Positions 8,601 through 45,925 of a stretch of 49,415 nucleotides of DNA are shown in pieces. Each line of letters begins with the position of its first letter. The first letter of the stretch is position 1. Position numbers and translations under genes: made by a program. Source of the DNA: an uncultured Lachnospiraceae bacterium (lineage in GTDB: Bacteria > Bacillota > Clostridia > Lachnospirales > Lachnospiraceae); assembly GCA_949447165.1 (NCBI GenBank), contig CASTAV010000003.1, forward strand, positions 1 to 49,415, read 5' to 3'. The notes below the pieces were generated by a model, which searched no databases, was not told the DNA's origin, and saw only the letters and a program-made list of their open reading frames with translations.

Positions 8601-9602
8601 TTAATTTGTGAAATGAAACAATAGTTTTAAAAACTGTTCTCTCTGTGGTTCCTGCTCCATTACTTTTTCCAGTTTTTCAATATCTCTCCCAGAAACCCAT
8701 GATTTTCGGGAACTACAGTAGTGATTGGCGATTTTCCAATACTTTTTGGGATACGCAAGCCGCAGATAAAGCTGTTCCAATTCCTCCGGCAGAAGCTTCC
8801 TTACGCTGTCATACGCTGAAATAAGCTCTATGCCAAGCCCTGTGTTCCAGTTGTATTTTTCCAGAATTTTACGGACAAAATTGGCAAGGTCACGCGCCAG
8901 CATATCGTAAGACATCTGCTCAAAATTAATTAACGCCCATTCTCCCTGTGAATACACTACATTATGCTGGTTATAGTCCCCATGGCAAAGCCCCCGCATT
9001 TGGCATAATGTGTCTTCGCTAAGCCGCCCAAACTGGTTCCTAAGCTGTATTGTCACTTCATTTGCCTGTGTCCGGTACTTTTCATATACCTTCATAAACA
9101 GCATTTCAAATTCATTCTTTTTGTTCTTATTGCGGATATAATTTTTAACCTTATTTAACTCCCTGTTATGGCGTTCGTATTCATTTAACAGGCTGTATCG
9201 ATCCGCCTTTAAAAATTCCGGAATCTCTTTTTCATATTGTTTCGTCAGTTTATGTAACTGCGCCAGCTTTTTTATAGCGGCTAAAATATCGTCCCGGTTT
9301 TTCACGTCGCATTCCCTGCCCAGATACCAGTTCTTTAACAGGTAAAACGTATCGTTTATCTCATCTTTTACGAGGATTTCTCCGGTTTTTGCAGGAAATG
9401 CCGTCTCTACGGCAATCCCCTGCTTATTTAAATATTCCAATATATCATATAAAAAAGCCGCCCGTTCTTTTGAGCCGCGAAATTCCCGTAAAAGCATCGC
9501 GCCTTTGTCAGTATCACAGTTCAGGGCTCCGCGTCCTTTTGCCGTGCTTCTGACTTCCACTTCATATTGTTCCAGAATTTCTTCTTCCCGATTATACACC
9601 AA
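8601..9602 (-). CDS. CotS-family spore coat protein / aminoglycoside-phosphotransferase-like kinase
   Basis: 333 aa with an APH/CotS-type catalytic motif (LCHGDYNQHNVVY) and a Brenner-like region. Confidence 0.5.
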   Translation of the reverse strand: MVYNREEEILEQYEVEVRSTAKGRGALNCDTDKGAMLLREFRGSKERAAFLYDILEYLNKQGIAVETAFPAKTGEILVKDEINDTFYLLKNWYLGRECDVKNRDDILAAIKKLAQLHKLTKQYEKEIPEFLKADRYSLLNEYERHNRELNKVKNYIRNKNKKNEFEMLFMKVYEKYRTQANEVTIQLRNQFGRLSEDTLCQMRGLCHGDYNQHNVVYSQGEWALINFEQMSYDMLARDLANFVRKILEKYNWNTGLGIELISAYDSVRKLLPEELEQLYLRLAYPKKYWKIANHYCSSRKSWVSGRDIEKLEKVMEQEPQREQFLKLLFHFTN

Positions 9603-32326: not shown

Positions 32327-32885
32327 TAATTTCTATCACAGTTTCCCCATGAAATTCTTCCGTATTTAGGATAACCTGATAACAGTCTTTGTCCGCATGG
32401 TAAACAAAATCATACGTTTTTTCACCATGATCCGTCTGAACCCTGACAACGAAAGCGCCAGCGGAAAATTCCTCTGCATCAAACTGAATCACAACTTGTG
32501 TTTGACTGCATTCTATGAAAGAATACTCGCCCTTTCTGCTGATAAATGTTTCTGTCTGCATTTTTTTGCCGCCGCTTCTGGATGCGGCAGGCATTGGCAG
32601 GCGGACAAATTCCCAGTTTGAATGAAACGTTTCCTTTTTTTGCTGTATCATTTCATAGATTCCCGCCGCTGCTTTTAGGGCAAAAACAACTCTCTTTTCT
32701 GATTCCGGCGGCAGTAAACCATGCGCAGATAATTGTTTTTGCAACACATACTGCGCGCAGAATATCTCATAACAGCGGTCACAATCCGCCATATGTTTTT
32801 TTAACTCTAACTGCCTGTCATTTAAACGTTCCTCTTTTACATAAGCTTCTGAAAGATTCCTAAGATCCTCCTCTGATATGTGCAT
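32304..32885 (-). CDS. zinc-finger (zf-HC2) anti-sigma factor
   Basis: 193 aa with the N-terminal zf-HC2 signature H-x3-C-x2-C (LELKKHMADCDRCYEIF). It sits immediately downstream of a sigma-70-like gene, with a 1-nt spacing. Confidence 0.6.
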   Translation of the reverse strand: MHISEEDLRNLSEAYVKEERLNDRQLELKKHMADCDRCYEIFCAQYVLQKQLSAHGLLPPESEKRVVFALKAAAGIYEMIQQKKETFHSNWEFVRLPMPAASRSGGKKMQTETFISRKGEYSFIECSQTQVVIQFDAEEFSAGAFVVRVQTDHGEKTYDFVYHADKDCYQVILNTEEFHGETVIEIIEDADGN

Positions 32886-33899
32886 TTAACCCTCCCGCCT
32901 GCAAAAGATATCCTCTGCTATGCCAATGCTTTTTTTACGGAATATATTATCCGCTAAAGCAAGTTTTTCTGTTTCATTTTTCAGGTTTTTTGCTATCCGA
33001 AGCGGCCAATTTTTCATTGCGTTTTTGGAAAATGTATCTGTGATGACAAGCTGTTTGACCGGACTGCCCTTATATTCTTTTTCCATATTTTCCTCATAAG
33101 CCCTTCCCCACCGGAATTGACTTTCGCTAAGCGGCTCTAAATGGTAAATTTCCAAAAACTCCCGGTTTAACAGTTCCGACGTCTGCCGATACATTGCGGA
33201 TATGGCAAAGTTCATCAGTATCACGCTGTTTCTAGTGATTTCTCCTTCAAGCCTGCCTGTTTTTTCATTGTAACGCGAAGCATCCCCATCTGTTTTCCTT
33301 GCGCCAATTACGTTTAATTTTTTCAACAGTTCTTTGTTGTCAGTTCGTTTTATTAGCTGTGGAACCAAAATAGCATAACAGTAGGTAAGCGTCTGATAAG
33401 GCGGGGCTTTCGTCTCTTTCAGCGCTTTTACATAAAACTCAAATATGCGGCGTATCACGGATAACCGTTCCTGTTCGATATAAGCGCTTTCCATCTGTTC
33501 CGATTCACCGCCTGTTTCGAATATACCGTTTTCCGGCTCTTTCGGTATAAATTCCTTTTTTGCAAAATGCCTCTTTCTGTAATTTTGGCAGCATATTTCC
33601 GCCAACCCGATCAAATACCCATAAAACCCTTCTGACGTCACTTTTTCAGGAAACCCGCGAAACGCCAGCTTCATCACTTCCATCCGGATTTCCTGCATCA
33701 CATCATCTAACGCTTCCGGCTGGCATATGCCATATGCGCGAAGCCTTTTTGCCGCCATTTCATAGGTATTGTCGCTTAAAATCTGAAGCGCTTTTTCCAA
33801 TGCGGATTTATCATTCCGCATTATCGGATCATATAAACGGCTTATGGCGCGCCCGGCATCCTCTCCTTCATAAAGCGCCTGATTATTTTCCTTTTCCAT
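32886..33899 (-). CDS. sigma-70 family (ECF-like region-2 N-terminus) sigma factor-like protein with extended C-terminal region
   Basis: 337 aa. A region-2-like segment ALDDVMQEIRMEVMKLAFRG...FYGYLIGLAEICCQNYRKR is present. It is paired with the downstream zf-HC2 anti-sigma factor. The length is atypical for an ECF sigma. Confidence 0.4.
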   Translation of the reverse strand: MEKENNQALYEGEDAGRAISRLYDPIMRNDKSALEKALQILSDNTYEMAAKRLRAYGICQPEALDDVMQEIRMEVMKLAFRGFPEKVTSEGFYGYLIGLAEICCQNYRKRHFAKKEFIPKEPENGIFETGGESEQMESAYIEQERLSVIRRIFEFYVKALKETKAPPYQTLTYCYAILVPQLIKRTDNKELLKKLNVIGARKTDGDASRYNEKTGRLEGEITRNSVILMNFAISAMYRQTSELLNREFLEIYHLEPLSESQFRWGRAYEENMEKEYKGSPVKQLVITDTFSKNAMKNWPLRIAKNLKNETEKLALADNIFRKKSIGIAEDIFCRREG

Positions 33900-33900
33900 A

Positions 33901-34494
33901 TTATTCTCCCGAAATTAATGCTGAAAACTCAATGATATGGTCTGCAAACCCAAATACGACCGCTTCTTTTGCCCTAAAAAAATGATCATATCCGGTTGCC
34001 AGTTCAATTTCTTCTTCTGTCCTTCCCGTATGTTTCGATAGAATTTGTATCAGCCGTCTCTTTGTCTCTAAAATCATTTCCGAAACTGAGCAAATCGTGG
34101 AACTGCTTCCTTGCACCGGATTCCCTAAAAGCGGTTCGTGCGCCATCAATTCACTGTTTGCAAGCATATAGCGGTTTCCTTTTGGGGCGGCGGCAAAAAT
34201 AACTGCGCCCATACTGTACGCTTTTCCCAGACAATACATTTTTAGCGGAGTCTGGCAAGTGGCAACTGCATCGTAAATGAGCAGTCCACTGTTTATTTCC
34301 CCTCCCCGCGTGTTTATCATAATCCGGATTGGAAGATATTTGTCTTCCACAGTTAAAACCATTAATTTTTTGATAAACTCCATTGCCGCCGCATCGTCAA
34401 TTTCCCCTTCTAAAAAAATAGTCCGCTCTCCAAACAAACAAGTTTCTAAAGGAACCAGCGAAATGCCGTTACTGCTTTTCTTCTGCATATCCAT
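33901..34494 (-). CDS. ClpP-family serine protease (catalytic triad intact)
   Basis: 197 aa. ERTIFLEGEIDDAAA, INTRGGEINSGLLIYDAV, GKAYSMGAVIFAAAPKGNRYMLANSELMAHEPL and a downstream YDHFF segment are present. These align with E. coli ClpP blocks including S97 (GQAASMG), H122 (MIHQP) and D171. Confidence 0.7.
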   Translation of the reverse strand: MDMQKKSSNGISLVPLETCLFGERTIFLEGEIDDAAAMEFIKKLMVLTVEDKYLPIRIMINTRGGEINSGLLIYDAVATCQTPLKMYCLGKAYSMGAVIFAAAPKGNRYMLANSELMAHEPLLGNPVQGSSSTICSVSEMILETKRRLIQILSKHTGRTEEEIELATGYDHFFRAKEAVVFGFADHIIEFSALISGE

Positions 34495-35785
34495 ATCTAT
34501 AACCCCCTGCTTTTATATATTGGTTTATTTGCTTTTGCATTTTTGATTCCTGATCCATCTGTAAAAGTTTTTGATACTCTCTGTCCTTTAATGTTTCATA
34601 GCGCTGTGTCACAATCGGCTTTTGCCCGCGCCGAAAAATATACTCCTGCCCGATTGGCATGGAAAGCACGTCTTCTAGCGGCTGGTTTAACCGCTGGCTG
34701 ATGGATTTTGCCGTTTGTATGTCAACTCCGCCCATATAAATATAAGTGTCGGAATTGTTGATGATAGTCTTTGCATCTTTTTCCCCATATATGGAATCCA
34801 ACTGGCTTTCGCTTTGGAGAAGCAAGGTGACGGAGATCCCTTTTTCCCTGAATATTGAAATGTATTCAGCAAAATTCGCGATTTTTGATCCACAGGCAAA
34901 ATCGTCGCACAGCACATGCACTGGGCGGTTTAACTGGCCAGATTCATTTTTTTCTCCGATTTCAAATAATTCTTTAAACATCTGGCTGTAAAAAATATTT
35001 ACAAAACTGTTTAGCGATGGGTTCACCGGAGAAGTTGTGACAAATAAAAGGGTTTTTTCATCGGATATTTTTTTAAAATCCACCTTTTCCGCTTTTTGCA
35101 TCATTCCACAGAGTTGTGGGGTAAAAATCGTGTTTAAAGCTACGGAAAGCGTAGAATAAATACAACTGGAAGTGCGGACAGGCATCTGATGGAAAGAATC
35201 CCAACAGCAAATAGCAAAACAATGCGGATCAGCCTGCCGGATCACCTCAAAATCTTCATCAAGTGAAGTTTCTATCAGATCACTGCCTTTTATAATGCGT
35301 AAATCTTTAAACAGGGATATTACATCTGCCATAGTTCCGTGTTCTTTTGTCATCAGCACATGGGCGATCAGCGCTGACAACAGGCTTATGCTCGCATGAT
35401 CCCAATATGGGTCTGAACTTGAATTTTTTTTCCTGCTGTCTGCCATAACGATTGCTTCCGCAAGATAAGTAACGTCTGTCCAGCTCTTAAGATATTGAAG
35501 CGGATCATAGGAAATTTCCGATTTTTCTGGAGAAACAAAGTTCAGATCTAGGACTTTATAGCCCCTTGTCTGAAAAAGTTTTATGTATTTTGCAATCAGC
35601 CTGCGTTTGGACAAAGTCATAATCAGACTGGAATGATAAGTATGCAGCAGCCTTGGCTCTGAAATAGACATCGTCTTTCCTGAGCCACTGCTTCCACAAA
35701 CAAGGACATTGTTATTAATCTTCGTTTCCCTGCAGTCTGCGCTAAATACTGCATTTTTCCCTAAAACAACAGTATCTTTTCTCAT
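34469..35785 (-). CDS. soluble TraG/TraD/VirD4-family (type IV coupling protein-like) P-loop ATPase
   Basis: The start is the MRKDTVVLGKN methionine (ATG 35783-35785), with a GGGAGG RBS 7 nt upstream. It overlaps the upstream gene's stop as ATGA. Walker A VLVCGSSGSGKTMS is present. The C-terminal T4CP block VLCDDFACGSKIANFAEYISIFREKGISVTLLLQSESQLDSIYGEKDAKTIINNSDTYIYMGGVDIQTAKSIS matches the TraG-D_C pattern (LDEF..lgkip.....RsrGi...lilQs.sQL...YG......i..n.......G..d..Ta). There is no N-terminal TM segment. Confidence 0.55.
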   Translation of the reverse strand: MRKDTVVLGKNAVFSADCRETKINNNVLVCGSSGSGKTMSISEPRLLHTYHSSLIMTLSKRRLIAKYIKLFQTRGYKVLDLNFVSPEKSEISYDPLQYLKSWTDVTYLAEAIVMADSRKKNSSSDPYWDHASISLLSALIAHVLMTKEHGTMADVISLFKDLRIIKGSDLIETSLDEDFEVIRQADPHCFAICCWDSFHQMPVRTSSCIYSTLSVALNTIFTPQLCGMMQKAEKVDFKKISDEKTLLFVTTSPVNPSLNSFVNIFYSQMFKELFEIGEKNESGQLNRPVHVLCDDFACGSKIANFAEYISIFREKGISVTLLLQSESQLDSIYGEKDAKTIINNSDTYIYMGGVDIQTAKSISQRLNQPLEDVLSMPIGQEYIFRRGQKPIVTQRYETLKDREYQKLLQMDQESKMQKQINQYIKAGGYRYGYAEEKQ

Positions 35786-36297
35786 AACGGCGCCTCCCAG
35801 AACGGATTTAAACGAATTTGGCTCAGTTTTAGACTGGTTTTTGATCCGACCGCTCCTTGTTTTAGAATGTTCTGTACACATTCTGCATAATTCATGGTAA
35901 TATTTGTTGCAAAACGGAACACAGACTGCAAATTTTCTATAAAACCATTTACGCTTTCCCTTCCTTTCGGCTGGTACAGCATCATCTGGTATTCTGCCAC
36001 CAAATCATTCTCGTTTGTCATATAAATGCGCATGTACAGCCATTCATTCTGCAAATCGTTTATCAATTTATAAATTTCCCTATGACGGTTCTCTGGAATC
36101 CCTTCTGCAAGACATGTGACAATCCGGATAATTTTACTTTTCTCACTTACGGATACATTCATCTTTAGGGAATGGCAGGGGTTGCCATAAGATAAACTAT
36201 ATTTGATAAATCCTTCTTTGTCGCGCTCCTCTGTGTTCGATACTTTCCCAAATTGGTTTAATACTTGTTTTACAATTTCCTGATAAGCGGCTGCCAT
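35782..36297 (-). CDS. first gene of the operon; possible YbjN-family (T3SS-chaperone-like fold) protein
   Basis: 171-aa acidic protein with an AGGAGG RBS 7 nt upstream. The family assignment is weak, from the pattern only. Confidence 0.3.
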   Translation of the reverse strand: MAAAYQEIVKQVLNQFGKVSNTEERDKEGFIKYSLSYGNPCHSLKMNVSVSEKSKIIRIVTCLAEGIPENRHREIYKLINDLQNEWLYMRIYMTNENDLVAEYQMMLYQPKGRESVNGFIENLQSVFRFATNITMNYAECVQNILKQGAVGSKTSLKLSQIRLNPFWEAPL

Positions 36298-37401: not shown

Positions 37402-38733
37402 CTATATAACTGCGTCGGTTGTATTCGCCGGCGTAATGGCATAAGTCAGCAGCCGCGTATCATCTACATTCATATAAATCGTTCCCGCAGAAAATTTAAT
37501 GCTGGAACTTGGAACTGCTTTTAATAAAACAATGGGATTCCCTTTCGCTGACGCATATTTTTCGGCTTCTGATCCGGCATAACATTTTATCGTCACTTCA
37601 TTACTGCATATTTGATAATAATGATCCTGCATATTTATTACGCTGTTCGGAATCAAAATGCTGCTTAGGGCATTGCAACTATTGAACGCCGCATATTCAA
37701 TTTGTGTAACCGTATTTGGAACTGCAACGCTTATAAGAGAACTGCATCCAGAAAAAGCGGTTCTTCCAATCTTTAACAAACGATTTGATAAACCTATCTG
37801 CTTTAAAGACGTACATCCTGCAAATGAAGACTCTTCCAAATACCTTACGCTTGATGGAAGTGTAACTTTTACCAAACTAGAACAGCCGCTAAATGCTTCC
37901 GTGCCAATTGAAATTCCGGTATTGCCATTTGCAATCGAAACATTTTTTAATGAAGAACACTGCTCAAATGCGTTATAACCAATATTGGCATTTGCCCCAA
38001 TGGAAACCGTCGTTAGATTCTTATTACCTGCAAAAGCATATCCGGATATAGACGTATGAACAGATGCACTTACTAAATTTTGACAATTATTAAAAGCACT
38101 TCTGTCCATTTCAACAGATGCCGCAACATTGACGCTTGTTAATCCTGTATTTTCAAAGCTACCTATGCCTAAATATGTAAGCGTTGACGGAAAAACACAG
38201 CCGTTTAACTTTACACAATTTTGAAAAGCATAATATCCTATTGACGTAAGCGCAGTTCCAAGAGAAACGCTTCGCAAATTTCCACAATTAGAAAAAGCGT
38301 ACCTACTTATAGACACTACATTTTTCATTCCATAAATAGCTGTCAGATTTCCGCAGCTCTGAAAACTACCGTAACCGATACTTGTAACCGTATCCGGTAT
38401 ATTAACAGATATCACCCAATCATTATATTCAAAAGCCCAATTACCAATCGCCGTTACTTTTTTTCCGGCTATCATGCTTGGAATCACTACATTTTCTTCT
38501 ACTCCTGTATATTTTGTTATAACAATATTGGAATAATCTCCTTCTTTATATTGCCAAAAACCAAATACGCCGTTTCCTTTCGCCATTTCCACAGTTTCTT
38601 CCCTGACAGTCTCCTCTGCATTCACCATCTCTGTCCCAGAAAAAAACATAAGAACCGCAAGCAACGCAACAAATAATATCCTTTTTTTCATAATCACTTT
38701 CCCCTTTCTACCGATAACCCATTTCTTCCTCAT
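37402..38733 (-). CDS. BspA-type leucine-rich-repeat (LRR_5) cell-surface protein, N-terminal part (ends at an in-frame TAG)
   Basis: The signal peptide KKRILFVALLAVLMFFSGTEMVNA is followed by many ~22-aa repeats of the type I(P/G)..VTSIG..AF..C..L. The ORF stops with TAG at 37402-37404 in the middle of a Big_2 domain. Confidence 0.7.
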   Translation of the reverse strand: MRKKWVIGRKGKVIMKKRILFVALLAVLMFFSGTEMVNAEETVREETVEMAKGNGVFGFWQYKEGDYSNIVITKYTGVEENVVIPSMIAGKKVTAIGNWAFEYNDWVISVNIPDTVTSIGYGSFQSCGNLTAIYGMKNVVSISRYAFSNCGNLRSVSLGTALTSIGYYAFQNCVKLNGCVFPSTLTYLGIGSFENTGLTSVNVAASVEMDRSAFNNCQNLVSASVHTSISGYAFAGNKNLTTVSIGANANIGYNAFEQCSSLKNVSIANGNTGISIGTEAFSGCSSLVKVTLPSSVRYLEESSFAGCTSLKQIGLSNRLLKIGRTAFSGCSSLISVAVPNTVTQIEYAAFNSCNALSSILIPNSVINMQDHYYQICSNEVTIKCYAGSEAEKYASAKGNPIVLLKAVPSSSIKFSAGTIYMNVDDTRLLTYAITPANTTDAVI

Positions 38734-39754
38734 AATCGAGAATCAGATACAAATTCTGCTTCTCATATTCATTTAACAAGCTGTCTTTAAAATCTTCCGG
38801 CTTAATAGAACCATGATACCAATCTTTTTCATCAAAATAATTTTGCAGCGCTTCATCATCAAACAACCGCCCATACCTCGCATAGACTTCATTCCTAGCC
38901 AAACGAAGCTCCTCTTTTCCTAACCCCTCTATATCCGATCTGTCCAGATACCGTGCGCCACTGTCCGGAATTATATAATCTTTCTCTTTTTCCTGCCGTT
39001 TTGTTTCTTTCGTCACTTTCACAGGCTGGCTTCCTTCCACTGTCGTATCCCATTCACAGATATATCCGCCCCTGCTTACTGTTTCATCATCATTCCCAAG
39101 GTCGTCCCACTGCCCTTCATCAATCCGATAACCATACCCGCTCCTTTCTCCATTACAGATTGCCCCGTAGCACTGTCCATAACTTCCATCAGGCTCCCCT
39201 TCTCCCCAATTCGTATAAGAAACAGGCTCTCCCGTCACCCATGTTTCCCATGGCTCCCGAATGCCTATCCAAAGATCACAGTCAAATCCCACATATTGAT
39301 TGATATATCCATAGACTGCTTTCTGTTCTTTTTTGGAGGCAATGGTAAGCAAATGCCCTCCTCTTTCTTCACATTTTTCTTTCGCCTCCTCCCATGTAAT
39401 GCCGCCAGCCTGTTCAAAATAATAATAGCTGTGCCCCTTATATTCGAAACAATCCGTAGGTATATGGAGGCTTTCCGTTTCATTCTGTTTGTTTTCCTGT
39501 TTAGTTTCCCACTCATCTTCCTTTTGGCTCTGCTGTTCTGCCTCCGATTGCTGTTTTGCTTCTTCCATGCGCTTCTGCTCTGCTTTTTGCTCTTTTGATT
39601 CCGCTAATGCAGTTTCCACTTTCGGTTTCAATTTTTTTATCCCATAGCGGACCCCCGCCGCAATCACTGCCGCCGCCACTGCGGCAAATACCGCCATCGC
39701 AAGCAGCATTTTTTTCATATCCTGTTTTCTGTAATTTGATAACTTCAACCTCAT
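38708..39754 (-). CDS. type-II membrane protein with C-type lectin-like domain and C-terminal YARHG domain
   Basis: N-terminus MRLKLSNYRKQDMKKMLL followed by a TM helix and a Q/E-rich coiled-coil. The CTLD is C..KGHSYYYF......W..A...C...GGHL..I.S..E...V.......WIGI......W.W..GEP..YTNW..GEP....C.......W.D..C....YICEW. A YARHG-like segment is present (NEVYARYGRLFDDEALQNYFDEKDWY). Confidence 0.7.
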   Translation of the reverse strand: MRLKLSNYRKQDMKKMLLAMAVFAAVAAAVIAAGVRYGIKKLKPKVETALAESKEQKAEQKRMEEAKQQSEAEQQSQKEDEWETKQENKQNETESLHIPTDCFEYKGHSYYYFEQAGGITWEEAKEKCEERGGHLLTIASKKEQKAVYGYINQYVGFDCDLWIGIREPWETWVTGEPVSYTNWGEGEPDGSYGQCYGAICNGERSGYGYRIDEGQWDDLGNDDETVSRGGYICEWDTTVEGSQPVKVTKETKRQEKEKDYIIPDSGARYLDRSDIEGLGKEELRLARNEVYARYGRLFDDEALQNYFDEKDWYHGSIKPEDFKDSLLNEYEKQNLYLILDYEEEMGYR

Positions 39755-39784: not shown

Positions 39785-40429
39785 TTAAAGAGCGAATATA
39801 AAAAGCATTAGAACTGCTGTATTCAATATAATACCCACAAGCGCCAAAGCCCCTCCCTGCTCCTTTCTGGCTCTCACGCCCAGAATCAATCCAAGAACAG
39901 CCATCCATAAAACTCCCCGAAAAGACAACACGCCTAAAACTACCGCCGCCACTGCTTTTCCATTTACTCTATTCTCCTCTGCTTCTCTTTCCTGCCCAAA
40001 GCCCTGAACATTCTCCTCTGCACTCTCTAAATCAGAAGATGCCGTTTCCGCAGTTTTCGCCTGTAACGCTTCCCCATTTCTGTTTAACCCACAAATATCC
40101 AAATAAACCTTACACCGGACGTCATCCTGATCCGCTCCGGCTTTCCAATACATTTTTGCCAGCCCAAAATTTTGCGCGCAGCAAATACCCGTCATATAGC
40201 ACCAGCCAAGGAAACGGTTGGTTTTATAATCATTCTGTTCGTTCTCGCATACTTCCCGGAAATATACTGATAAACGCGCTTCTATCAAATCTTTATCCGT
40301 ATCCTCTGCCGCATATTTGGCAAGCGTCATAAAGGCATTTCCATCTCCTTTAACGGCAGCTTTGCACAGCCAGTCCAAACAATCTTCTTTATCGCCTTTC
40401 TGCATACAAATCAGGCCAAAAAAATACAT
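39785..40429 (-). CDS. Sel1-like repeat protein, C-terminal part with TM segments (frameshifted continuation of 40411-41184)
   Basis: Sel1-like units (WLCKAAVKGDGNAFMTLAKYAA; AKMYWKAGADQDD) followed by two hydrophobic helices. The ORF start lies inside a T7 tract. Confidence 0.5.
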   Translation of the reverse strand: MYFFGLICMQKGDKEDCLDWLCKAAVKGDGNAFMTLAKYAAEDTDKDLIEARLSVYFREVCENEQNDYKTNRFLGWCYMTGICCAQNFGLAKMYWKAGADQDDVRCKVYLDICGLNRNGEALQAKTAETASSDLESAEENVQGFGQEREAEENRVNGKAVAAVVLGVLSFRGVLWMAVLGLILGVRARKEQGGALALVGIILNTAVLMLFIFAL

Positions 40430-41184
40430 GGATTCTGAATAGCCGCATTCTGCAGGAAACCGGAGATATTCTTCCGCTTTTTTAAGTCCTTTGGAACTTC
40501 TTCCCCTTTTATATACATCTCGCCCAATTCCTGCGAACTTAAAGCATCCCCTTCCTTTACTCCCAGTAATAAAAGCTTTATTTTTTTATCCGTATCCGTC
40601 AGTTGAAATGCTTCTTCCCAATAATGCCGCGCCGCTTCATTTGACTTTTTCTCCTCTTTTTCTAAAAAACGCAAAAACGCTTCCTGAATCTTAGGATTCT
40701 CAATATGTTTTCCATAATCGCTCTTTGTCTGGCTATAATTCTTCACTTTAACAGGAATATCTCCATGAAGCGCGCTTTGTATCTGCGCAAACATTTCATT
40801 AACTGCGCCCGTATTAAAAATATAATTAGCGTCTGTGCCCAGATCTGTAAACGAATCTACACTGATGCAATCCTCATACTTCTCAAATTGCGCTTCATGG
40901 AAGGCGCCCGCTTTATAATAGATACCATCAAAGCCAAATACCATTCCTTCTTTGCCGTTACTTGAAGATACAATAATAAAAATATCTTCTTTTTTTAGAG
41001 ATGGATATTTATATTTTACATTTCCGATTTTATACAACGCGCCCTCTATAACTTTCACAGGAACTTCTTCCCCAAAACTCCACTTATAAACCTCCCCGTA
41101 GTTGTCCCTGAGTATTTTTTCGCAGTAGTTAAGAATTATCCTACAGATTTTCTCCATTTCCTGTCTGGAATAAATGAGATTCAT
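40411..41184 (-). CDS. Sel1-like repeat protein, N-terminal part (reading frame breaks at a T7 homopolymer)
   Basis: 257 aa. The C-terminal region begins Sel1-like repeats (LGEMYIKGEEVPKDLKK). The ORF ends ...CIFLA* within tgtatttttttggcc. A +1 T would fuse it in frame to the downstream ORF as ...PCIFFGLICMQKGDKED. Confidence 0.5.
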   Translation of the reverse strand: MNLIYSRQEMEKICRIILNYCEKILRDNYGEVYKWSFGEEVPVKVIEGALYKIGNVKYKYPSLKKEDIFIIVSSSNGKEGMVFGFDGIYYKAGAFHEAQFEKYEDCISVDSFTDLGTDANYIFNTGAVNEMFAQIQSALHGDIPVKVKNYSQTKSDYGKHIENPKIQEAFLRFLEKEEKKSNEAARHYWEEAFQLTDTDKKIKLLLLGVKEGDALSSQELGEMYIKGEEVPKDLKKRKNISGFLQNAAIQNPCIFLA

Positions 41185-41201: not shown

Positions 41202-42317
41202 TTATGAAATGCTTTCCCCCTGAATACAAGACTGTATCGCCAGAAGCGTCCCATAATCATGTTGGTCTAATCTCTCTGCCCCCTTTGTCTCAAGCCTTCG
41301 TAATTGAATCACCGCCGACGCTTGTACACATAATTTGAAAAATTCACACAGCCACTTGCTTCTGTTCGAAACAGAGCCTGTATAAATATAATTCACCCCG
41401 TAACAAGTCGGGCAGACAAAATGATACTTACATTCCACGCAGCGTTTTTCTTCGTGAATATCCGCTGCAGGCAATTTATAATCCACAAATTTCCCCGCTT
41501 CCTCTCCCAGCCCGACCGGGCTAAAGGAATGGCAGGGATATAACTTTCCTTCCGTGTCATACGCTTTCATCAACTCTCCAGCCCCACATCGCTTAAACCC
41601 GGCGTCTGGTTTTTTCAGGATTCCAGTCAAATCAATATTTAATATCTGGCATAAAGGAAGGTTTGGATTTTCAGTATAATACGCCACTAATTTATCAAGC
41701 TGTCCTTTTAGCCCGTGTATTAAATCATCGCTCCATTCCAGACCATATGCAAACGTACACCCACATGGAAACCCTTTTTCATGGATAAAGATAACGCCTT
41801 CTGCCAGACTGGGAAGCGTCTCTTTTGACACAGTCATCTTCACATTCTGTCCTGGCCAGCATTCCCTAAAAAAATCCAAATCAATGCGGTCAAAAGAATC
41901 CGAACGGTTCTGATTGTGCATTTCTCTTGTCCCATCTAGGCTGATTCCACAGTAGATGTGTTCCTTCCGCTCTCTAAGCCACTGCTTCATTTCCGCGTCA
42001 AGCAATGTTCCATTTGTATTCACAAAAATAACTGCCTTTTTTCGCCACTTTGGCATATTCGACTCAATATAGCCATAAATCTCTTTAATTATCTGCTTTT
42101 CTAAAAATGGCTCGCCGCCAAACAATGTAAACCTGCATTCGTCCGCGCCGTCTTCCATTGACATTTCCGCATCGATAATCTTTTTTGCCGTCTCAAATTT
42201 CATTCTCTTATCCGATTTATAATGTTCAAAACAATAAGAACATGACAGATTGCAGCCTTCTGTCAAGATCAGCATGACTTCTTTTAACATACCTCTATCG
42301 CCCCCGTTTCTTTGCAA
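41202..42317 (-). CDS. radical SAM / SPASM-domain peptide-modifying enzyme
   Basis: CxxxCxxC cluster (CNLSCSYC) near the N-terminus and a C-terminal SPASM-type Cys cluster (CVECKYHFVCPTCYG). Confidence 0.8.
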   Translation of the reverse strand: MQRNGGDRGMLKEVMLILTEGCNLSCSYCFEHYKSDKRMKFETAKKIIDAEMSMEDGADECRFTLFGGEPFLEKQIIKEIYGYIESNMPKWRKKAVIFVNTNGTLLDAEMKQWLRERKEHIYCGISLDGTREMHNQNRSDSFDRIDLDFFRECWPGQNVKMTVSKETLPSLAEGVIFIHEKGFPCGCTFAYGLEWSDDLIHGLKGQLDKLVAYYTENPNLPLCQILNIDLTGILKKPDAGFKRCGAGELMKAYDTEGKLYPCHSFSPVGLGEEAGKFVDYKLPAADIHEEKRCVECKYHFVCPTCYGVNYIYTGSVSNRSKWLCEFFKLCVQASAVIQLRRLETKGAERLDQHDYGTLLAIQSCIQGESIS

Positions 42318-42371
42318 ATATGCAGGAAAAGACTTCTCTTTTCCTGCATTTTTCTGTAATGCCGTTTCCTC

Positions 42372-42545
42372 TTACCTCACATCACAGGCTGTCCACACAG
42401 AAATCCCATGTCCTTTGCAGCTTCCGGAACAGGAATCGCAAGCGCTGGAAATTACGATGTTTTCGATTGAAAGTTCACCGAATTTCTTTTCACAGACGTC
42501 AAGCATACTCTGTAAAGCAAATTTTTCTTCTTTTGTCATTGCCAT
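42372..42545 (-). CDS. candidate Cys-rich RiPP precursor peptide (ranthipeptide/sactipeptide-like) for the adjacent rSAM-SPASM enzyme
   Basis: 57 aa, MAMTKEEKFALQSMLDVCEKKFGELSIENIVISSACDSCSGSCKGHGISVWTACDVR. An AAAGGGGG SD lies 8 nt upstream of the ATG at 42543-42545. The peptide has five Cys, four of them clustered in the C-terminal 20 aa, and it sits 55 nt upstream of the rSAM gene. Confidence 0.45.
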   Translation of the reverse strand: MAMTKEEKFALQSMLDVCEKKFGELSIENIVISSACDSCSGSCKGHGISVWTACDVR

Positions 42546-43392
42546 AACATTCACCCCCTTTCCAAATGTTTCTCTTTTTATAATCCAGAGCCATTCCTCT
42601 CTCCAGTAATTCCATCAAGCCGCTTTTTTCCTCCAATTCTGTACGCAGGCGGCAGGAAAACACGTCACAATCCAACCGCTCCTCCGCCCCCGGAGGCGCA
42701 GCGTTTGCCAGACAAAAATACCATGTCGCATAAAAGGCATAGATATCCGTCCATACGCCATACATGCCTCCCTTTTCATATTGTTCCGGCGGGCTAAAGC
42801 CGGTTCGGTAAGTTGGTTCTTCAAGCTGCTGTTTTCGGCTGTTTAAATCCAATGCAGATCCAAAATCAATCAGTCCCACTTCTTTTGCTTCTGTAACAAT
42901 AATATTGTCAGGACAAATGTCCCTATGGATAATTCCATGTCTATGTATCTGCTCCAAACTTTTTTGAAGGGATTCCATCAGTACATAAGATTCTTTCGCT
43001 TCCATTCTTCCATTTTTCTGAACCATCTCGCGTAACGTCATGCCCTTACAGCGCCCCATAACGATATAAGCCGTATTATTTTCCAAAAAAAAGTCCTGGA
43101 TTTTAACAATCCCCTCAATATTTTTTAATTTTTCCAGAATAGATGCTTCATGGATAAACATGTCATATTTGCCGCTGTTATTTTTGAAAAAAACCTGAGA
43201 CGTTTCACCGCGGTATGCTTTTCCATATGGAAAATACTCCTTAATCACGACATCCTTATCCTGCGCAAAATCTACCGAAAGATAAGAAATCCCAAAACCG
43301 CCCTGCCCAATCATTTTTTTTATACAATATCTATTCTGAAGGATCTTGCCACTGTTTAAAAGTTTCCTCCCCCTATATAACCGATCTCCCAT
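42499..43392 (-). CDS. Hanks-type Ser/Thr protein kinase domain protein (atypical catalytic loop HRDICPDN)
   Basis: Glycine loop IGQGGFG, beta-3 Lys VVIKEY, HRD catalytic loop, DFG (IDFGSA) and an APE-like TGFSPPE. Confidence 0.75.
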   Translation of the reverse strand: MGDRLYRGRKLLNSGKILQNRYCIKKMIGQGGFGISYLSVDFAQDKDVVIKEYFPYGKAYRGETSQVFFKNNSGKYDMFIHEASILEKLKNIEGIVKIQDFFLENNTAYIVMGRCKGMTLREMVQKNGRMEAKESYVLMESLQKSLEQIHRHGIIHRDICPDNIIVTEAKEVGLIDFGSALDLNSRKQQLEEPTYRTGFSPPEQYEKGGMYGVWTDIYAFYATWYFCLANAAPPGAEERLDCDVFSCRLRTELEEKSGLMELLERGMALDYKKRNIWKGGECYGNDKRRKICFTEYA

Positions 43393-43933: not shown

Positions 43934-44566
43934 TTATTCCATAGAAAAATCCTCTTTTGGATCTTCCGTCACCTCTTTATAATAAGAAGACAAATATTCA
44001 AACCTGTTTACAACCGATTGTGGACAGTAGCGGATAATATACGCCAAATCCCGTTCCATAAACGCTTTCCGGATTTTTGTCGAAGACAGGCCTTCAAAAA
44101 TACAGTTTCGTTCGAAATTCCGGTATCTAATAAAGGAATAGACCTCCGTATCCAAAAACCAACTGTCTAATATCTGCGGATTATCTGAATAGTACAGCGA
44201 AAATCTTTTCTGCCCGATTCTGGACACGACATTATAATAAAAATATCGTCCCCAGATTTTTGCGCCTTCTAAATCGGATTCCATAGACCAATCCGGCAAT
44301 GTATCTACCTTTATTCTTCTATTCTGTTTTTCATCAAAACACTCTCGCAGCATCCTTTCCCGCAATGAGATGTCAAACGGATTTCTAAGCATGTCCAGTT
44401 TGTTCTCACTGCCAAGCATAATAAATACTTTGTCATTTTCCTCTAACGCTTTCTCCACTAAGAACAGATGCGCATTATGGACAGGCTGCATTCTTGCCAA
44501 AAACACGCCATATGTATCTGACATTTGATCTCTCCCCTTTCTTTCAAGCCTGCTTATTTTTCCCAC
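43934..44566 (-). CDS. cytidylyl/adenylyltransferase-family nucleotidyltransferase (NMN adenylyltransferase NadM-like)
   Basis: GVFLARMQPVHNAHL fits the (H/T)xGH nucleotidyltransferase motif (G.f.GRFQP.H.GHL), followed by IMLGSENK. Confidence 0.55.
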   Translation of the reverse strand: MGKISRLERKGRDQMSDTYGVFLARMQPVHNAHLFLVEKALEENDKVFIMLGSENKLDMLRNPFDISLRERMLRECFDEKQNRRIKVDTLPDWSMESDLEGAKIWGRYFYYNVVSRIGQKRFSLYYSDNPQILDSWFLDTEVYSFIRYRNFERNCIFEGLSSTKIRKAFMERDLAYIIRYCPQSVVNRFEYLSSYYKEVTEDPKEDFSME

Positions 44567-45606
44567 TCACAAAAATAAACGCCGCTCCATATGCTGTCAT
44601 TCCACTTATATTTTGCATCTGCATAAAAGGCTGCATAATCTTCATCTCCCTGAAAATTATCCGGCTGATTCTTTCCCCAATTTGTATAATCAGATTCATA
44701 GCCTTCTGCCCAAACCCATTTTCCTTCTTCTTTTTGGTCCGTATATCCAAAATTCACACTCTCGTAGCCTCGTTCTATCATATATTTATATAGAGCTTTA
44801 TTTTCTTTTTTGTTATTTATCACAGCAAGATGCCCACCCAGACTTTCGCATCTTTCATTTGCTTCTTCCCATGTTGCTTCACCTTCTAAAATCATATAAC
44901 GACGCGATTTATATGTAAGAACCGGATCAATCGGATTTAAATAGCCTGTTTCTTCATTATCTGCTTCAATTCTTTCTCTGTTTTTCCTGCCCTGCTCTTT
45001 TGAATCCCATTCACATACATAAGATGAAGTGTCATTAGTAGAAATGGCCCTCCATTTCGACTGATCATAACGGTAATATGACCCATACATACAATCTTTG
45101 TCACTTCCAAGATCCGGCTCCCCTTCTGTCCAGTTCGCATACTCCGTCCCTTCTGTGATAATCCAATTCCAACTAATTTGCTCCATATCCATATACAATC
45201 CGAAAAAAACATATTCATACTCTTTAGAAGACACATACTTATAAACCGCTTTATCTTCAGAAGACGTCGTCATCGTTGCCAGATGCCCTCCAAGCTGCTC
45301 ACATTTCCATTCTGCATCTTCCCACGACTCGGCATCGTCATATACATAGTAATAGTGTCCATTATATTCTAATGCGGAATACGGTATATCCATTTCCTTT
45401 TCCCATGCTTCCTTTTCTATCCGTTCCAATCTCTCTTTTTCCCTTGTTTCTTTAAACTCCGAAAACACTTCTTCCACTTTCGGCCTAAAAAACCGGACTG
45501 CCTGACTAATTGCAATTATCGCCACAATGGCAACTGCAAAAGAAATTGCCGCCATTACAAGAAATATTTTCTTTGCATCTTTTCCTCTAAAATTTGAAAA
45601 CTTCAT
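44554..45606 (-). CDS. type-II membrane protein with two tandem C-type lectin-like domains
   Basis: The likely start is MKFSNFRGKDAKK (ATG 45604-45606) followed by a TM helix. The two CTLDs are ...GHYYYVYDDAESWEDAEWKCEQLGGHLATM...YANWTEGEPD...YVCEWD and ...RRYMILEGEATWEEANERCESLGGHLAVI...YTNWGKNQPDN...YFCEWEK. Confidence 0.7.
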   Translation of the reverse strand: MKFSNFRGKDAKKIFLVMAAISFAVAIVAIIAISQAVRFFRPKVEEVFSEFKETREKERLERIEKEAWEKEMDIPYSALEYNGHYYYVYDDAESWEDAEWKCEQLGGHLATMTTSSEDKAVYKYVSSKEYEYVFFGLYMDMEQISWNWIITEGTEYANWTEGEPDLGSDKDCMYGSYYRYDQSKWRAISTNDTSSYVCEWDSKEQGRKNRERIEADNEETGYLNPIDPVLTYKSRRYMILEGEATWEEANERCESLGGHLAVINNKKENKALYKYMIERGYESVNFGYTDQKEEGKWVWAEGYESDYTNWGKNQPDNFQGDEDYAAFYADAKYKWNDSIWSGVYFCEWEK

Positions 45607-45655
45607 TTTTCTTTTCCACCATTTTTTCCAAACAATATACAACGTTCCATATTTT

Positions 45656-45925
45656 TTACTTTTGTTTTTTCCTTTCTTTTTCACGTTTTCTTTTCCGAAA
45701 CATTATAATTATAAAGCAAGGGATACCAACGAAAACCAATAGGCAGCCCTTCACTTCATTTTCATTCTGAACAATCCAGTCCACTGTATCCAACACAACC
45801 GGCCCCAAAAACCGTACTCCTGCGATGATTGCCGCCAATGCCAGAATCAATCCAATTCCCGCTAAACTCCCGGCAATCAGCAGCATCCTTTTTTTATCTT
45901 TTCCCCTAAAATTTGAAATCGTCAT
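45656..45925 (-). CDS. small two-TM protein sharing the lectin-family N-terminal motif (possible truncated paralog)
   Basis: MTISNFRGKDKKRMLLIAGSLAGIGLILALAAIIAGVRF... then a second TM and a KR-rich tail. No lectin domain. Confidence 0.35.
   Translation of the reverse strand: MTISNFRGKDKKRMLLIAGSLAGIGLILALAAIIAGVRFLGPVVLDTVDWIVQNENEVKGCLLVFVGIPCFIIIMFRKRKREKERKKQK

What the first reader, a model, noticed from the sequence alone, without database searches (positions are those of the whole stretch)
41202..43392. Ser/Thr kinase, Cys-rich small peptide and rSAM-SPASM enzyme: putative RiPP (ranthipeptide/sactipeptide-like) cluster
A 57-aa ORF (leader-like N-terminus; core SSACDSCSGSCKGHGISVWTACDVR) with a strong SD lies 55 nt upstream of a radical-SAM enzyme that has a SPASM auxiliary-cluster domain (CVECKYHFVCPTCYG). 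It also overlaps the 3' end of a stand-alone Hanks kinase. Small Cys-rich peptide with an rSAM/SPASM partner is the hallmark of thioether-crosslinked RiPPs. The kinase neighbour is unusual and might phosphorylate or regulate the peptide.
Basis: partly seen in the sequence, partly recalled or inferred. Interest (0 to 1): 0.6.

Follow-up and report, generated by a model that had tools for sequence, protein, structure and literature searches.

The report
Kinase-linked radical-SAM peptide maturation cassette
A gut Lachnospiraceae genome carries a conserved three-gene unit (protein kinase, 57-residue cysteine-rich peptide, radical-SAM/SPASM enzyme) that looks like a modified-peptide pathway, and its dedicated kinase is a partner I found no description of.

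Summary
On the minus strand lie a 297-aa Hanks-type kinase (43392-42499), a 57-aa Cys-rich ORF (42545-42372) and a radical-SAM/SPASM enzyme (42290-41202).

The small ORF is a real gene. It sits directly upstream of the orthologous rSAM gene in 11 of 11 distinct loci. Its C-terminal core is under strong purifying selection (pN/pS 0.17, against 0.51 in the leader). A strong hairpin of differing sequence follows it in every locus examined.

The enzyme is not an anaerobic sulfatase maturase. It aligns full-length to the PapB and CXXX-repeat peptide maturase models, and its best fold match is the ranthipeptide maturase CteB. It reaches no curated family cut-off and lacks the N-terminal peptide-recognition domain (RRE) found in PapB.

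Its wider family (83 genome loci) mostly has a small Cys-rich ORF just upstream.

The kinase is catalytically intact. It is directly adjacent in 9 of 11 loci whose flanks otherwise differ. A second, non-sister rSAM clade independently carries a kinase immediately downstream.

Verdict: a RiPP-type cassette, probably thioether-forming, with a dedicated kinase. It is a new variant of a known kind. The cross-link chemistry and the kinase's role are inferred, not shown.

The parts
42499..43392 (-). Stand-alone Hanks-type Ser/Thr protein kinase, 297 aa. The last ~19 residues are a disordered tail that reads through the peptide's ribosome-binding site and start codon.
   Evidence: Pkinase E 3.8e-30. 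K51, E82, HRD156-158, N163, DFG176-178 and E203 are invariant across rSAM-linked kinases. AF2 pLDDT is 83.6, with the tail 279-297 below 50. Best folds are PpkA, Stk1 and PknB.
42372..42545 (-). Precursor peptide gene, 57 aa plus stop. The leader is roughly residues 1-35 (42441-42545), with the conserved motif ML[DT]xCxxK[FY]G. The core is residues 36-57 (42375-42440): CDSCSGSCKGHGISVWTACDVR.
   Evidence: Homologues P0121-P0123 and P0244-P0246. Present in 11 of 11 loci. pN/pS is 0.17 in the core and 0.51 in the leader, with saturated synonymous sites. SD read from the sequence.
42320..42349 (-). 13-bp perfect hairpin between the peptide and rSAM genes. It is probably a leaky terminator or an mRNA-stabilising stem, which would set a high ratio of precursor to enzyme.
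   Evidence: z = -4.8. Strong stems of differing sequence sit at the same place in every locus examined from both kinase-linked clades, several followed by U-tracts.
41202..42290 (-). Radical-SAM/SPASM peptide maturase, 362 aa, with no N-terminal RRE. CX3CX2C is at 42231-42254. The SPASM auxiliary-cluster cysteines lie at 41346-41588.
   Evidence: AF2 pLDDT is 92.7. Fold matches: CteB TM 0.75, anSME 0.69.
39785..41184 (-). Possible accessory gene: a Sel1-repeat protein with a C-terminal DUF4190 membrane segment. It is split in the window into 257-aa and 214-aa ORFs by a frameshift near 40411-40429. In the near-identical L004 it is one 466-aa ORF.
   Evidence: Homologues lie next to the cassette in L085 and L087. 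Unrelated Sel1 proteins lie downstream in L084 and L090. The linkage is weaker than that of the kinase.

Best explanation
This is a compact RiPP-type cassette. The 57-aa gene product is a precursor with a helical leader (conserved ML[DT]xCxxK[FY]G) and a 22-residue core, C-x2-C-[ST]-G-x-C-x-G-H-G-x-S-[VI]-W-x2-C-D-[VI]-[KR].

The adjacent RRE-less radical-SAM/SPASM enzyme binds the precursor. It uses a 5'-deoxyadenosyl radical and its two auxiliary Fe-S clusters to cross-link core cysteines to other side chains. The most likely products are non-alpha or alpha thioethers, as made by PapB, CteB and sactisynthases. The conserved Asp37, Asp55, Ser/Thr40, Ser49, His46 and Trp51 are candidate acceptors.

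The co-transcribed, translationally overlapping kinase is a dedicated third component. Most likely it phosphorylates a conserved Ser/Thr of the precursor (Ser49 or Ser/Thr40), either as a tailoring or as a priming step. It may also supply the leader binding that the maturase lacks.

The hairpin after the peptide gene keeps precursor mRNA in excess over enzyme mRNA.

Shown: gene reality, conserved synteny, the enzyme class and cofactor motifs, kinase catalytic integrity, and repeated kinase linkage. Inferred: the type of cross-link, the kinase substrate, and the fate of the product. No protease or exporter is encoded, so the product may stay inside the cell, as is proposed for SCIFF peptides.
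For: Peptide conservation and selection.

Peptide directly upstream of the rSAM gene in 11 of 11 loci of this clade. Small Cys-rich ORFs lie upstream in most of the 83 loci of the wider family, including CXXX-repeat types.

rSAM and SPASM cysteines invariant.

Full-length similarity to the PapB and CXXX-repeat maturase models, but only N-terminal similarity to anSME.

The high-confidence model matches CteB best.

Kinase directly upstream in 9 of 11 loci with otherwise unrelated flanks.

A second, non-sister rSAM clade has a Pkinase gene 17-190 nt downstream in 9 loci, some inside housekeeping flanks.

All kinase catalytic residues are retained in both clades.

Conserved intercistronic hairpin.

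PapB chemistry and its RRE: PMC12715619. Ranthipeptide background: PMC8326336.
Against: No curated maturase family cut-off is reached: PapB 150 against 340, CXXX-repeat 108 against 350, SCIFF 84 against 425. The chemistry therefore cannot be transferred with confidence.

The Pfam SPASM model itself did not hit at E <= 0.01.

No leader peptidase, exporter or immunity gene is in the conserved unit.

One locus (L085) has no kinase within 8 kb, and in another (L002/L003) the kinase is 3.7 kb away.

By sequence and by fold the kinase resembles ordinary signalling kinases (PpkA, Stk1, PknB) rather than lanthipeptide-synthetase kinase domains. A regulatory role is therefore as compatible with the data as a biosynthetic one.

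The CxxCxxxC...C plus His pattern could also be a metal site.
Confidence: 0.55

Rival explanations
1. The peptide-rSAM pair is a RiPP system, but the kinase is a regulator rather than a biosynthetic enzyme. It might, for example, phosphorylate the maturase or a transcription factor to gate production. Alternatively the mature peptide could be an intracellular signal that acts on the kinase.
For: After its few rSAM-linked relatives, the kinase is closest to ordinary PASTA-type signalling kinases at about 40% identity. Its best structural matches are PpkA, Stk1 and PknB. No exporter is present, which fits an intracellular role. SCIFF ranthipeptides are linked to quorum sensing (PMC8326336).
Against: The kinase has no sensor or membrane domain. 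It overlaps the peptide gene translationally. A kinase was linked to the rSAM gene in two separate rSAM clades, in different gene orders. That pattern suggests a direct mechanistic partner.
Confidence: 0.25
2. A lanthipeptide-like route. The kinase phosphorylates core Ser/Thr, the phosphate is eliminated to give dehydro-amino acids, and cysteines add to them to form lanthionines. The rSAM enzyme would carry out a different reaction.
For: The core is rich in Ser/Thr next to Cys. The kinase scores 104 bits against the LanL model and 73 against LanKC. Kinase-based dehydration is established for class III and IV lanthipeptides (PMC8341899, listed; otherwise my own knowledge).
Against: No lyase or cyclase domain or gene lies in the conserved unit. 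The LanL and LanKC scores are no better than those for generic kinases (PknB 115 bits). No lanthipeptide-synthetase kinase appears among the top 50 fold matches.
Confidence: 0.07
3. The trio is a conflict or defence module rather than a natural-product pathway. An example would be an abortive-infection or inter-bacterial system in which kinase and rSAM act on host or invader targets.
For: The cassette sits in variable islands with CHAT, TraG/VirD4-like, DO-GTPase, GAP1-M, HSP70 and AAA+ genes. The kinase matches PADLOC kinase models, mad6 at 127 bits and PD-T4-6 at about 120 bits.
Against: The PADLOC scores are in the same range as those for generic kinases. The rSAM enzyme matches pVip only in the generic core, at 52 bits. 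The second kinase-linked clade lies among housekeeping genes. The tightly conserved Cys-rich core peptide with a leader is the signature of a substrate, not of a sensor.
Confidence: 0.08
4. The rSAM enzyme is an anaerobic sulfatase-maturase-type enzyme, or another enzyme that modifies proteins. On this view the small ORF is either a chance ORF or an unmodified metal-binding mini-protein.
For: anSME is the second-best fold match (TM 0.69), and like this enzyme it lacks an RRE. The CxxCxxxC...C plus His pattern could bind a metal.
Against: TIGR03942 scores 60.7 against a cut-off of 349, over the N-terminus only. No sulfatase is among the neighbours scanned. The ORF is under purifying selection and is syntenic in 11 of 11 loci. 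Relatives of the enzyme mostly carry diverse Cys-rich peptides directly upstream.
Confidence: 0.03

Closest known systems
PapB/PapA (freyrasin), a ranthipeptide from Paenibacillus polymyxa; NCBIfam NF047865
   Same: It is the best-scoring curated model, at 150 bits over the full length including SPASM. The substrate is Cys-rich with Asp residues. The chemistry is a radical thioether from Cys to Asp/Glu (PMC12715619, PMC9413430).
   Different: The score is far below the 340-bit cut-off. PapB has an N-terminal RRE (residues 1-86, PMC12715619), which this enzyme lacks. PapA carries six CSANDA repeats, whereas this core has no Cys-X3-Asp/Glu spacing. No kinase partner of PapB appears in the PapB paper I read (PMC12715619) or in the abstracts listed.
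CXXX-repeat peptide maturase family (TIGR04115), predicted in silico
   Same: It aligns over the full length at 108 bits. Other clades of the same 83-locus family have true CXXX-repeat precursors, such as GCMDCSNSCAENCAVKCKK and KKDCGSSCSGHCGETCQALCKSTCSALF. The window core starts with CxxCxxxC.
   Different: No member of the 83-locus family that I tested reaches the 350-bit cut-off. The window core has only one CXXX step, followed by the distinct GHGxS[VI]WxxCD tail. It also has a kinase partner.
CteB/CteA (thermocellin, a SCIFF ranthipeptide), PDB 5WGG/5WHY
   Same: It is the best match among solved structures, both by sequence and by fold (TM 0.75, 23-24% identity). Both enzymes are rSAM with a SPASM domain holding two auxiliary clusters.
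   Different: CteB carries an RRE of about 90 aa. The SCIFF model scores 84 against a cut-off of 425. The SCIFF precursor motif is absent.
Kinase domains of class III/IV lanthipeptide synthetases (LanKC, LanL) and stand-alone kinases of class V lanthipeptides
   Same: In these systems a protein-kinase-fold enzyme is dedicated to a ribosomal peptide rich in Ser/Thr and Cys (my own knowledge; PMC8341899).
   Different: There is no lyase or cyclase here. The kinase is a generic signalling type by sequence and by fold. The cross-linking enzyme is a radical-SAM protein.
QhpD/QhpC (maturation of the quinohemoprotein amine dehydrogenase gamma subunit)
   Same: It is an rSAM/SPASM enzyme that makes Cys-Asp/Glu thioethers in a small Cys-rich polypeptide that stays inside the cell (PMC8326336).
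   Different: It scores 91 bits against a cut-off of 453, over the N-terminal part only. No dehydrogenase subunits are nearby.

Membership tests
Radical-SAM/SPASM RiPP maturase (general class) | CX3CX2C radical-SAM cluster motif in a TIM-barrel core | tested here: met
   C13, C17 and C20 are invariant in 30 homologues. Radical_SAM E 3.4e-11. The fold matches CteB, anSME and SuiB.
Radical-SAM/SPASM RiPP maturase (general class) | C-terminal SPASM domain with about 7 Cys for two auxiliary [4Fe-4S] clusters | tested here: met
   C235, C253, C284, C287, C293, C296 and C315 are invariant. The full-length structural alignment to CteB includes the C-terminus. Caveat: Pfam PF13186 did not hit at E <= 0.01.
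Radical-SAM/SPASM RiPP maturase (general class) | A small precursor gene adjacent and co-conserved, with a variable leader and a conserved core | tested here: met
   Present in 11 of 11 loci. pN/pS is 0.17 in the core and 0.51 in the leader.
Radical-SAM/SPASM RiPP maturase (general class) | RiPP recognition element (PqqD-like), either N-terminal in the maturase or as a separate protein | tested here: not met
   The rSAM motif starts at residue 13 of 362. The model has no wHTH domain. No PqqD-like hit was found in the neighbours scanned.
Ranthipeptide / sactipeptide | Cys sulfur linked to a carbon of another residue (loss of 2 Da per link), shown by MS or NMR | not testable with these tools
   This needs heterologous expression followed by HR-MS/MS or NMR.
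PapB family (NF047865) | Whole-protein score at or above the curated cut-off of 340 bits | tested here: not met
   150.1 bits.
CXXX-repeat target maturase (TIGR04115) | Score of at least 350 bits and a precursor with tandem CXXX repeats | tested here: not met
   108.4 bits. The core has CxxCxxxC only.
SCIFF maturase (TIGR03974) | Score of at least 425 bits and a SCIFF precursor | tested here: not met
   84.5 bits. No NCBIfam hit for the peptide.
Anaerobic sulfatase-maturating enzyme (TIGR03942) | Score of at least 349 bits and a sulfatase substrate gene in the neighbourhood | tested here: not met
   60.7 bits, residues 20-141 only. No sulfatase is among the neighbours scanned.
Hanks-type (eukaryote-like) Ser/Thr protein kinase | Gly-rich loop, VAIK Lys, alphaC Glu, HRD, catalytic Asn, DFG and APE-type motifs | tested here: met
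   GQGGFG, K51, E82, H156-R157-D158, N163, D176-F177-G178 and E203. Pkinase scores 105.6 bits against a cut-off of 31.7.
Class III/IV lanthipeptide synthetase (LanKC/LanL) | Kinase fused to a lyase domain and a cyclase domain | tested here: not met
   The protein is 297 aa and is a kinase domain only. LanL scores 104 against 650 and LanKC 73 against 575.

The most novel reading that the evidence does not exclude
The kinase is an obligatory biosynthetic partner of an RRE-less radical-SAM maturase. It would either install a phosphate on the precursor that directs or enables the radical cross-linking, or act as the leader-binding subunit. Either role would be a biosynthetic logic not described for rSAM RiPPs. 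The logic would have arisen twice, since two non-sister rSAM clades carry kinases in different gene orders.
Probability: 0.3. Interest if true: 0.75.

Novelty: new variant of a known kind. Interest (0 to 1): 0.55.

Why it matters
Peptides modified by radical-SAM/SPASM enzymes are a fast-growing source of gut-microbiome signalling and antimicrobial molecules, and of enzymes for peptide macrocyclisation. PapB is already used in that way.

This cassette is minimal: three genes of about 2.2 kb. It lacks the usual recognition domain. It carries a catalytically intact protein kinase that is conserved across different genomic contexts and recurs in a second clade.

If the kinase takes part in maturation, it would add phosphorylation to the radical-SAM RiPP toolbox. 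It could also explain how RRE-less maturases find their substrates.

Even if the kinase is only regulatory, the wider family has thousands of database relatives (4,494 hits at E <= 0.001, a count that also includes more distant rSAM proteins). It spans Clostridia, Bacilli, Bacteroidota, Coriobacteriia and at least one archaeal bin. It has no curated model and, as far as I could find, no characterised member.

Tried and rejected
1. anSME assignment: rejected on model scores and on context.

2. Linkage of the cassette to the TraG/ClpP/CHAT island. The TraG, ClpP, p337, p193 and YbjN block is shared within 8 kb only with L002/L003. CHAT plus TraG also appears in L091. Other loci have unrelated flanks, so the island is not part of the unit.

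3. PADLOC scan for a known defence system: only generic kinase and rSAM-core matches.

4. Metagenome scan with the peptide profile: one true extra locus, L088, identical to the window. L089 is a spurious high-GC match.

5. Profile search of the peptide against 1.84 billion representative proteins: only three small-protein relatives, so the precursor family is rare.

6. Literature searches for a kinase-associated rSAM RiPP or for the CXXX-repeat family: no relevant paper in the held library. This is not proof of absence.

7. A test of whether the kinase looks like a lanthipeptide-synthetase kinase: no. It looks like PpkA, Stk1 and PknB.

Full report
**What is there**

Everything in the finding lies on the minus strand.

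- **Kinase.** A 297-aa ORF (43392-42499) is a bare Hanks-type kinase domain. Pkinase covers residues 24-233 with E 3.8e-30, and there is no sensor, PASTA or membrane segment.
- **Peptide.** Overlapping the kinase's last 47 nt, a 57-codon ORF starts at ATG 42545 behind a GGGGG(TG) Shine-Dalgarno sequence and ends at 42372. It encodes MAMTKEEKFALQSMLDVCEKKFGELSIENIVISSACDSCSGSCKGHGISVWTACDVR.
- **Hairpin.** After an 81-nt spacer that contains a perfect 13-bp hairpin (42320-42349; z = -4.8 against shuffles) comes the radical-SAM gene.
- **rSAM enzyme.** The mechanical ORF starts at TTG 42317. All homologues start at the ATG at 42290, giving 362 aa identical to database protein P0001.
- **Cofactor motifs.** The enzyme has CX3CX2C at residues 13/17/20. 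Its SPASM cysteines, C235, C253, C284-x2-C287-x5-C293-x2-C296 and C315, are invariant in 30 homologues down to 40% identity.

**Is the small ORF a gene?**

Yes. A protein search found three called homologues (56-72% identity). Reading the DNA upstream of orthologous rSAM genes gave more.

I collected 11 distinct loci of this rSAM clade (61-100% identity):

- the window, which equals L004 and L088
- L001
- L002, which equals L003
- L005, which equals L086
- L084, L085, L087, L090, L091, L092 and L093

All 11 carry a 57- or 58-codon ORF directly upstream of the rSAM gene.

The consensus is a variable leader with the motif ML[DT]xCxxK[FY]G. It is followed by a core, C-x2-C-[ST]-G-x-C-x-G-H-G-x-S-[VI]-W-x2-C-D-[VI]-[KR].

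Synonymous sites between homologues are saturated (pS about 0.9). Non-synonymous change is low, especially in the core: pooled pN/pS is 0.17 in the core and 0.51 in the leader.

In all eight loci of this clade that I folded, and in the seven of the second kinase-linked clade, a strong stem-loop of differing sequence follows the peptide gene. Several are followed by U-tracts. A leaky terminator or stabiliser after the structural gene is a familiar feature of RiPP operons (my own knowledge).

A profile of the peptide found only three further small proteins among 1.84 billion representatives, so the precursor family is rare.

**What is the enzyme?**

- **NCBIfam.** The best matches are full-length alignments to the PapB ranthipeptide maturase (150 bits) and to the CXXX-repeat peptide maturase (108 bits). 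Next come nif11-type, QhpD, CcpM and SCIFF maturases over the N-terminal half. The anaerobic sulfatase maturase model scores 60.7 bits over residues 20-141 only. No model reaches its curated cut-off.
- **Solved structures by sequence.** CteB is the closest.
- **Solved structures by fold.** An AlphaFold model built on 30 homologues is confident (pLDDT 92.7). Its best fold match is again CteB (TM 0.75), ahead of anSME (0.69), TigE, ChlB and SuiB.
- **No RRE.** Unlike PapB, whose RRE is residues 1-86 (PMC12715619), and unlike CteB, this protein has no N-terminal recognition element.

A scan of one genome per species found 113 relatives, and 80 loci were kept. They come from Clostridia, Bacilli, Coriobacteriia, Bacteroidota, Chloroflexota, Planctomycetota and a Methanomethylophilaceae bin.

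In most of them a small Cys-rich ORF sits just upstream. Several types occur: true CXXX repeats (GCMDCSNSCAENCAVKCKK; KKDCGSSCSGHCGETCQALCKSTCSALF), GC-x4-C-x-AW[DA] peptides, and others.

The family is therefore a broad, uncurated set of RRE-less peptide maturases. Even its members with CXXX-repeat precursors score only 110-154 bits on TIGR04115.

**The kinase**

All catalytic residues are invariant in the rSAM-linked kinases: the Gly loop, K51, E82, HRD, N163, DFG and E203.

In the window's clade a Pkinase gene lies directly upstream of the peptide in 9 of 11 distinct loci. In L087 only the C-terminal fragment is visible, at the contig end. The kinase is 3.7 kb upstream in L002/L003 and absent within 8 kb in L085.

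The flanks of these loci are otherwise unrelated: UvrD/HTH, PTS/PGM/FtsW, HSP70/AAA+, DO-GTPases, and CHAT plus TraG.

A second rSAM clade is not sister to the first in a neighbour-joining tree. Its precursors end in GC-x4-C-[QM]-AW[DA], and it has a Pkinase gene 17-190 nt downstream of the rSAM gene in nine loci. In some of these the three genes sit alone among housekeeping genes.

The two kinase groups share only 20-23% identity in the alignment. After its few rSAM-linked relatives, the window kinase's nearest relatives are ordinary PASTA kinases at about 40% identity.

This pattern argues for a functional tie between kinase and cassette, possibly acquired twice.

By sequence and by fold the kinase resembles PpkA, Stk1 and PknB. 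No lanthipeptide-synthetase kinase domain appears among the top 50 fold matches. Its C-terminal 19 residues, encoded where it overlaps the peptide gene, are predicted to be disordered.

**Mechanism proposed**

The rSAM/SPASM enzyme most probably cross-links core cysteines to other residues by radical chemistry. Thioethers are the best guess from its relatives (PMC8326336).

The core lacks the Cys-X3-Asp/Glu spacing used by PapB, so the exact links cannot be predicted.

The kinase most probably phosphorylates a conserved Ser/Thr of the precursor, or substitutes for the missing recognition element. A purely regulatory role is the main rival.

No protease, exporter or immunity gene is conserved with the unit. 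The product may therefore act inside the cell, or it may depend on unlinked functions.

**Comparison and novelty**

The pairing of a Cys-rich peptide with an rSAM/SPASM enzyme is a known kind. The enzyme fails the curated membership tests for PapB, CXXX-repeat, SCIFF and anSME.

The conserved stand-alone Hanks kinase is the new element. Searches of the held literature found no description of such a combination, which is not proof of absence.

I rate it a new variant of a known kind, of moderate interest and readily testable.

**Context**

The first 22 kb of the window are ordinary chromosome. From 23 kb onward it is an unusual island.

L004, a mouse-gut Lachnospiraceae MAG (MGBC163558), is 97-100% identical to the window. 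It differs by frameshifts in several genes.

Noticed in passing
window 23062-36297 (minus strand): An unusual island runs next to the cassette. It holds a 1390-aa Flg_new/Big_2 surface protein, a 797-aa protein with a Major-Vault-Protein shoulder domain (27249-29642), an 890-aa CHAT-domain protein (29654-32326), ClpP (33901-34494), a 470-aa TraG/VirD4-like coupling ATPase (34469-35881) and a YbjN/TY-Chap1 chaperone-like protein (35782-36297). The TraG, ClpP, p337, p193 and YbjN block recurs in L002/L003. CHAT plus TraG recurs next to the cassette in L091. Its function is unknown. It looks like a conflict or secretion module.
   Followed up: partly
window 39785-41184 (about 40411-40429); L004 4901-7088: The 257-aa and 214-aa ORFs downstream of the rSAM gene are one 466-aa Sel1/DUF4190 gene in the near-identical L004, so the window carries a frameshift there. 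Conversely, L004 has frameshifts in the kinase and rSAM genes that are intact in the window. These are either assembly indels or pseudogenisation.
   Followed up: partly
L030-L032, L046, L055, L056, L060, L063, L067 (rSAM at about 6001-7074): A second kinase-linked clade has the order peptide (...GC-x4-C-[QM]-AW[D/A]), then rSAM, then Pkinase. It is often preceded by a ~283-aa protein with no Pfam hit (motif NIDFFGINV...FKIY). A different 310-aa protein downstream of the rSAM in L038 gives a weak Trp_DMAT hit, and L072 has a relative of the 283-aa protein. Together these hint at Trp prenylation of the C-terminal Trp.
   Followed up: partly
L054 7189-10285; L076 4129-10903: The clade nearest to the window's rSAM clade in the tree carries three extra genes. 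These are a second rSAM/SPASM enzyme fused to an FAD-binding domain, a U32 peptidase, and a ~350-aa protein with a marginal APH-phosphotransferase hit (24.5 bits). The last is another possible phosphotransfer partner of a different fold.
   Followed up: no
window 38708-39754, 44554-45684, 47233-48009: Three paralogous proteins each have an N-terminal membrane anchor, a Lys/Glu-rich linker and C-type lectin domain(s). One also has a YARHG domain. Relatives lie beside the cassette in L002/L003 and L085.
   Followed up: no
P0083 (599 aa, relative of the rSAM enzyme): One database relative (43% identity) is annotated with TraG/T4SS-DNA_transf domains fused to the rSAM domains. It could be a true fusion or a gene-calling artefact.
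   Followed up: no
window 42499-43392: The kinase's best solved relative, by a wide margin, is the type VI secretion regulator kinase PpkA (104 bits, against 62 for StkP; 30% identity). That is unexpected for a Firmicute kinase.
   Followed up: no
window 8601-9602: In the ordinary chromosomal part there is a 333-aa APH/EcKL-type small-molecule kinase with a weak TCAD9 (ternary-complex-associated domain) hit.
   Followed up: no
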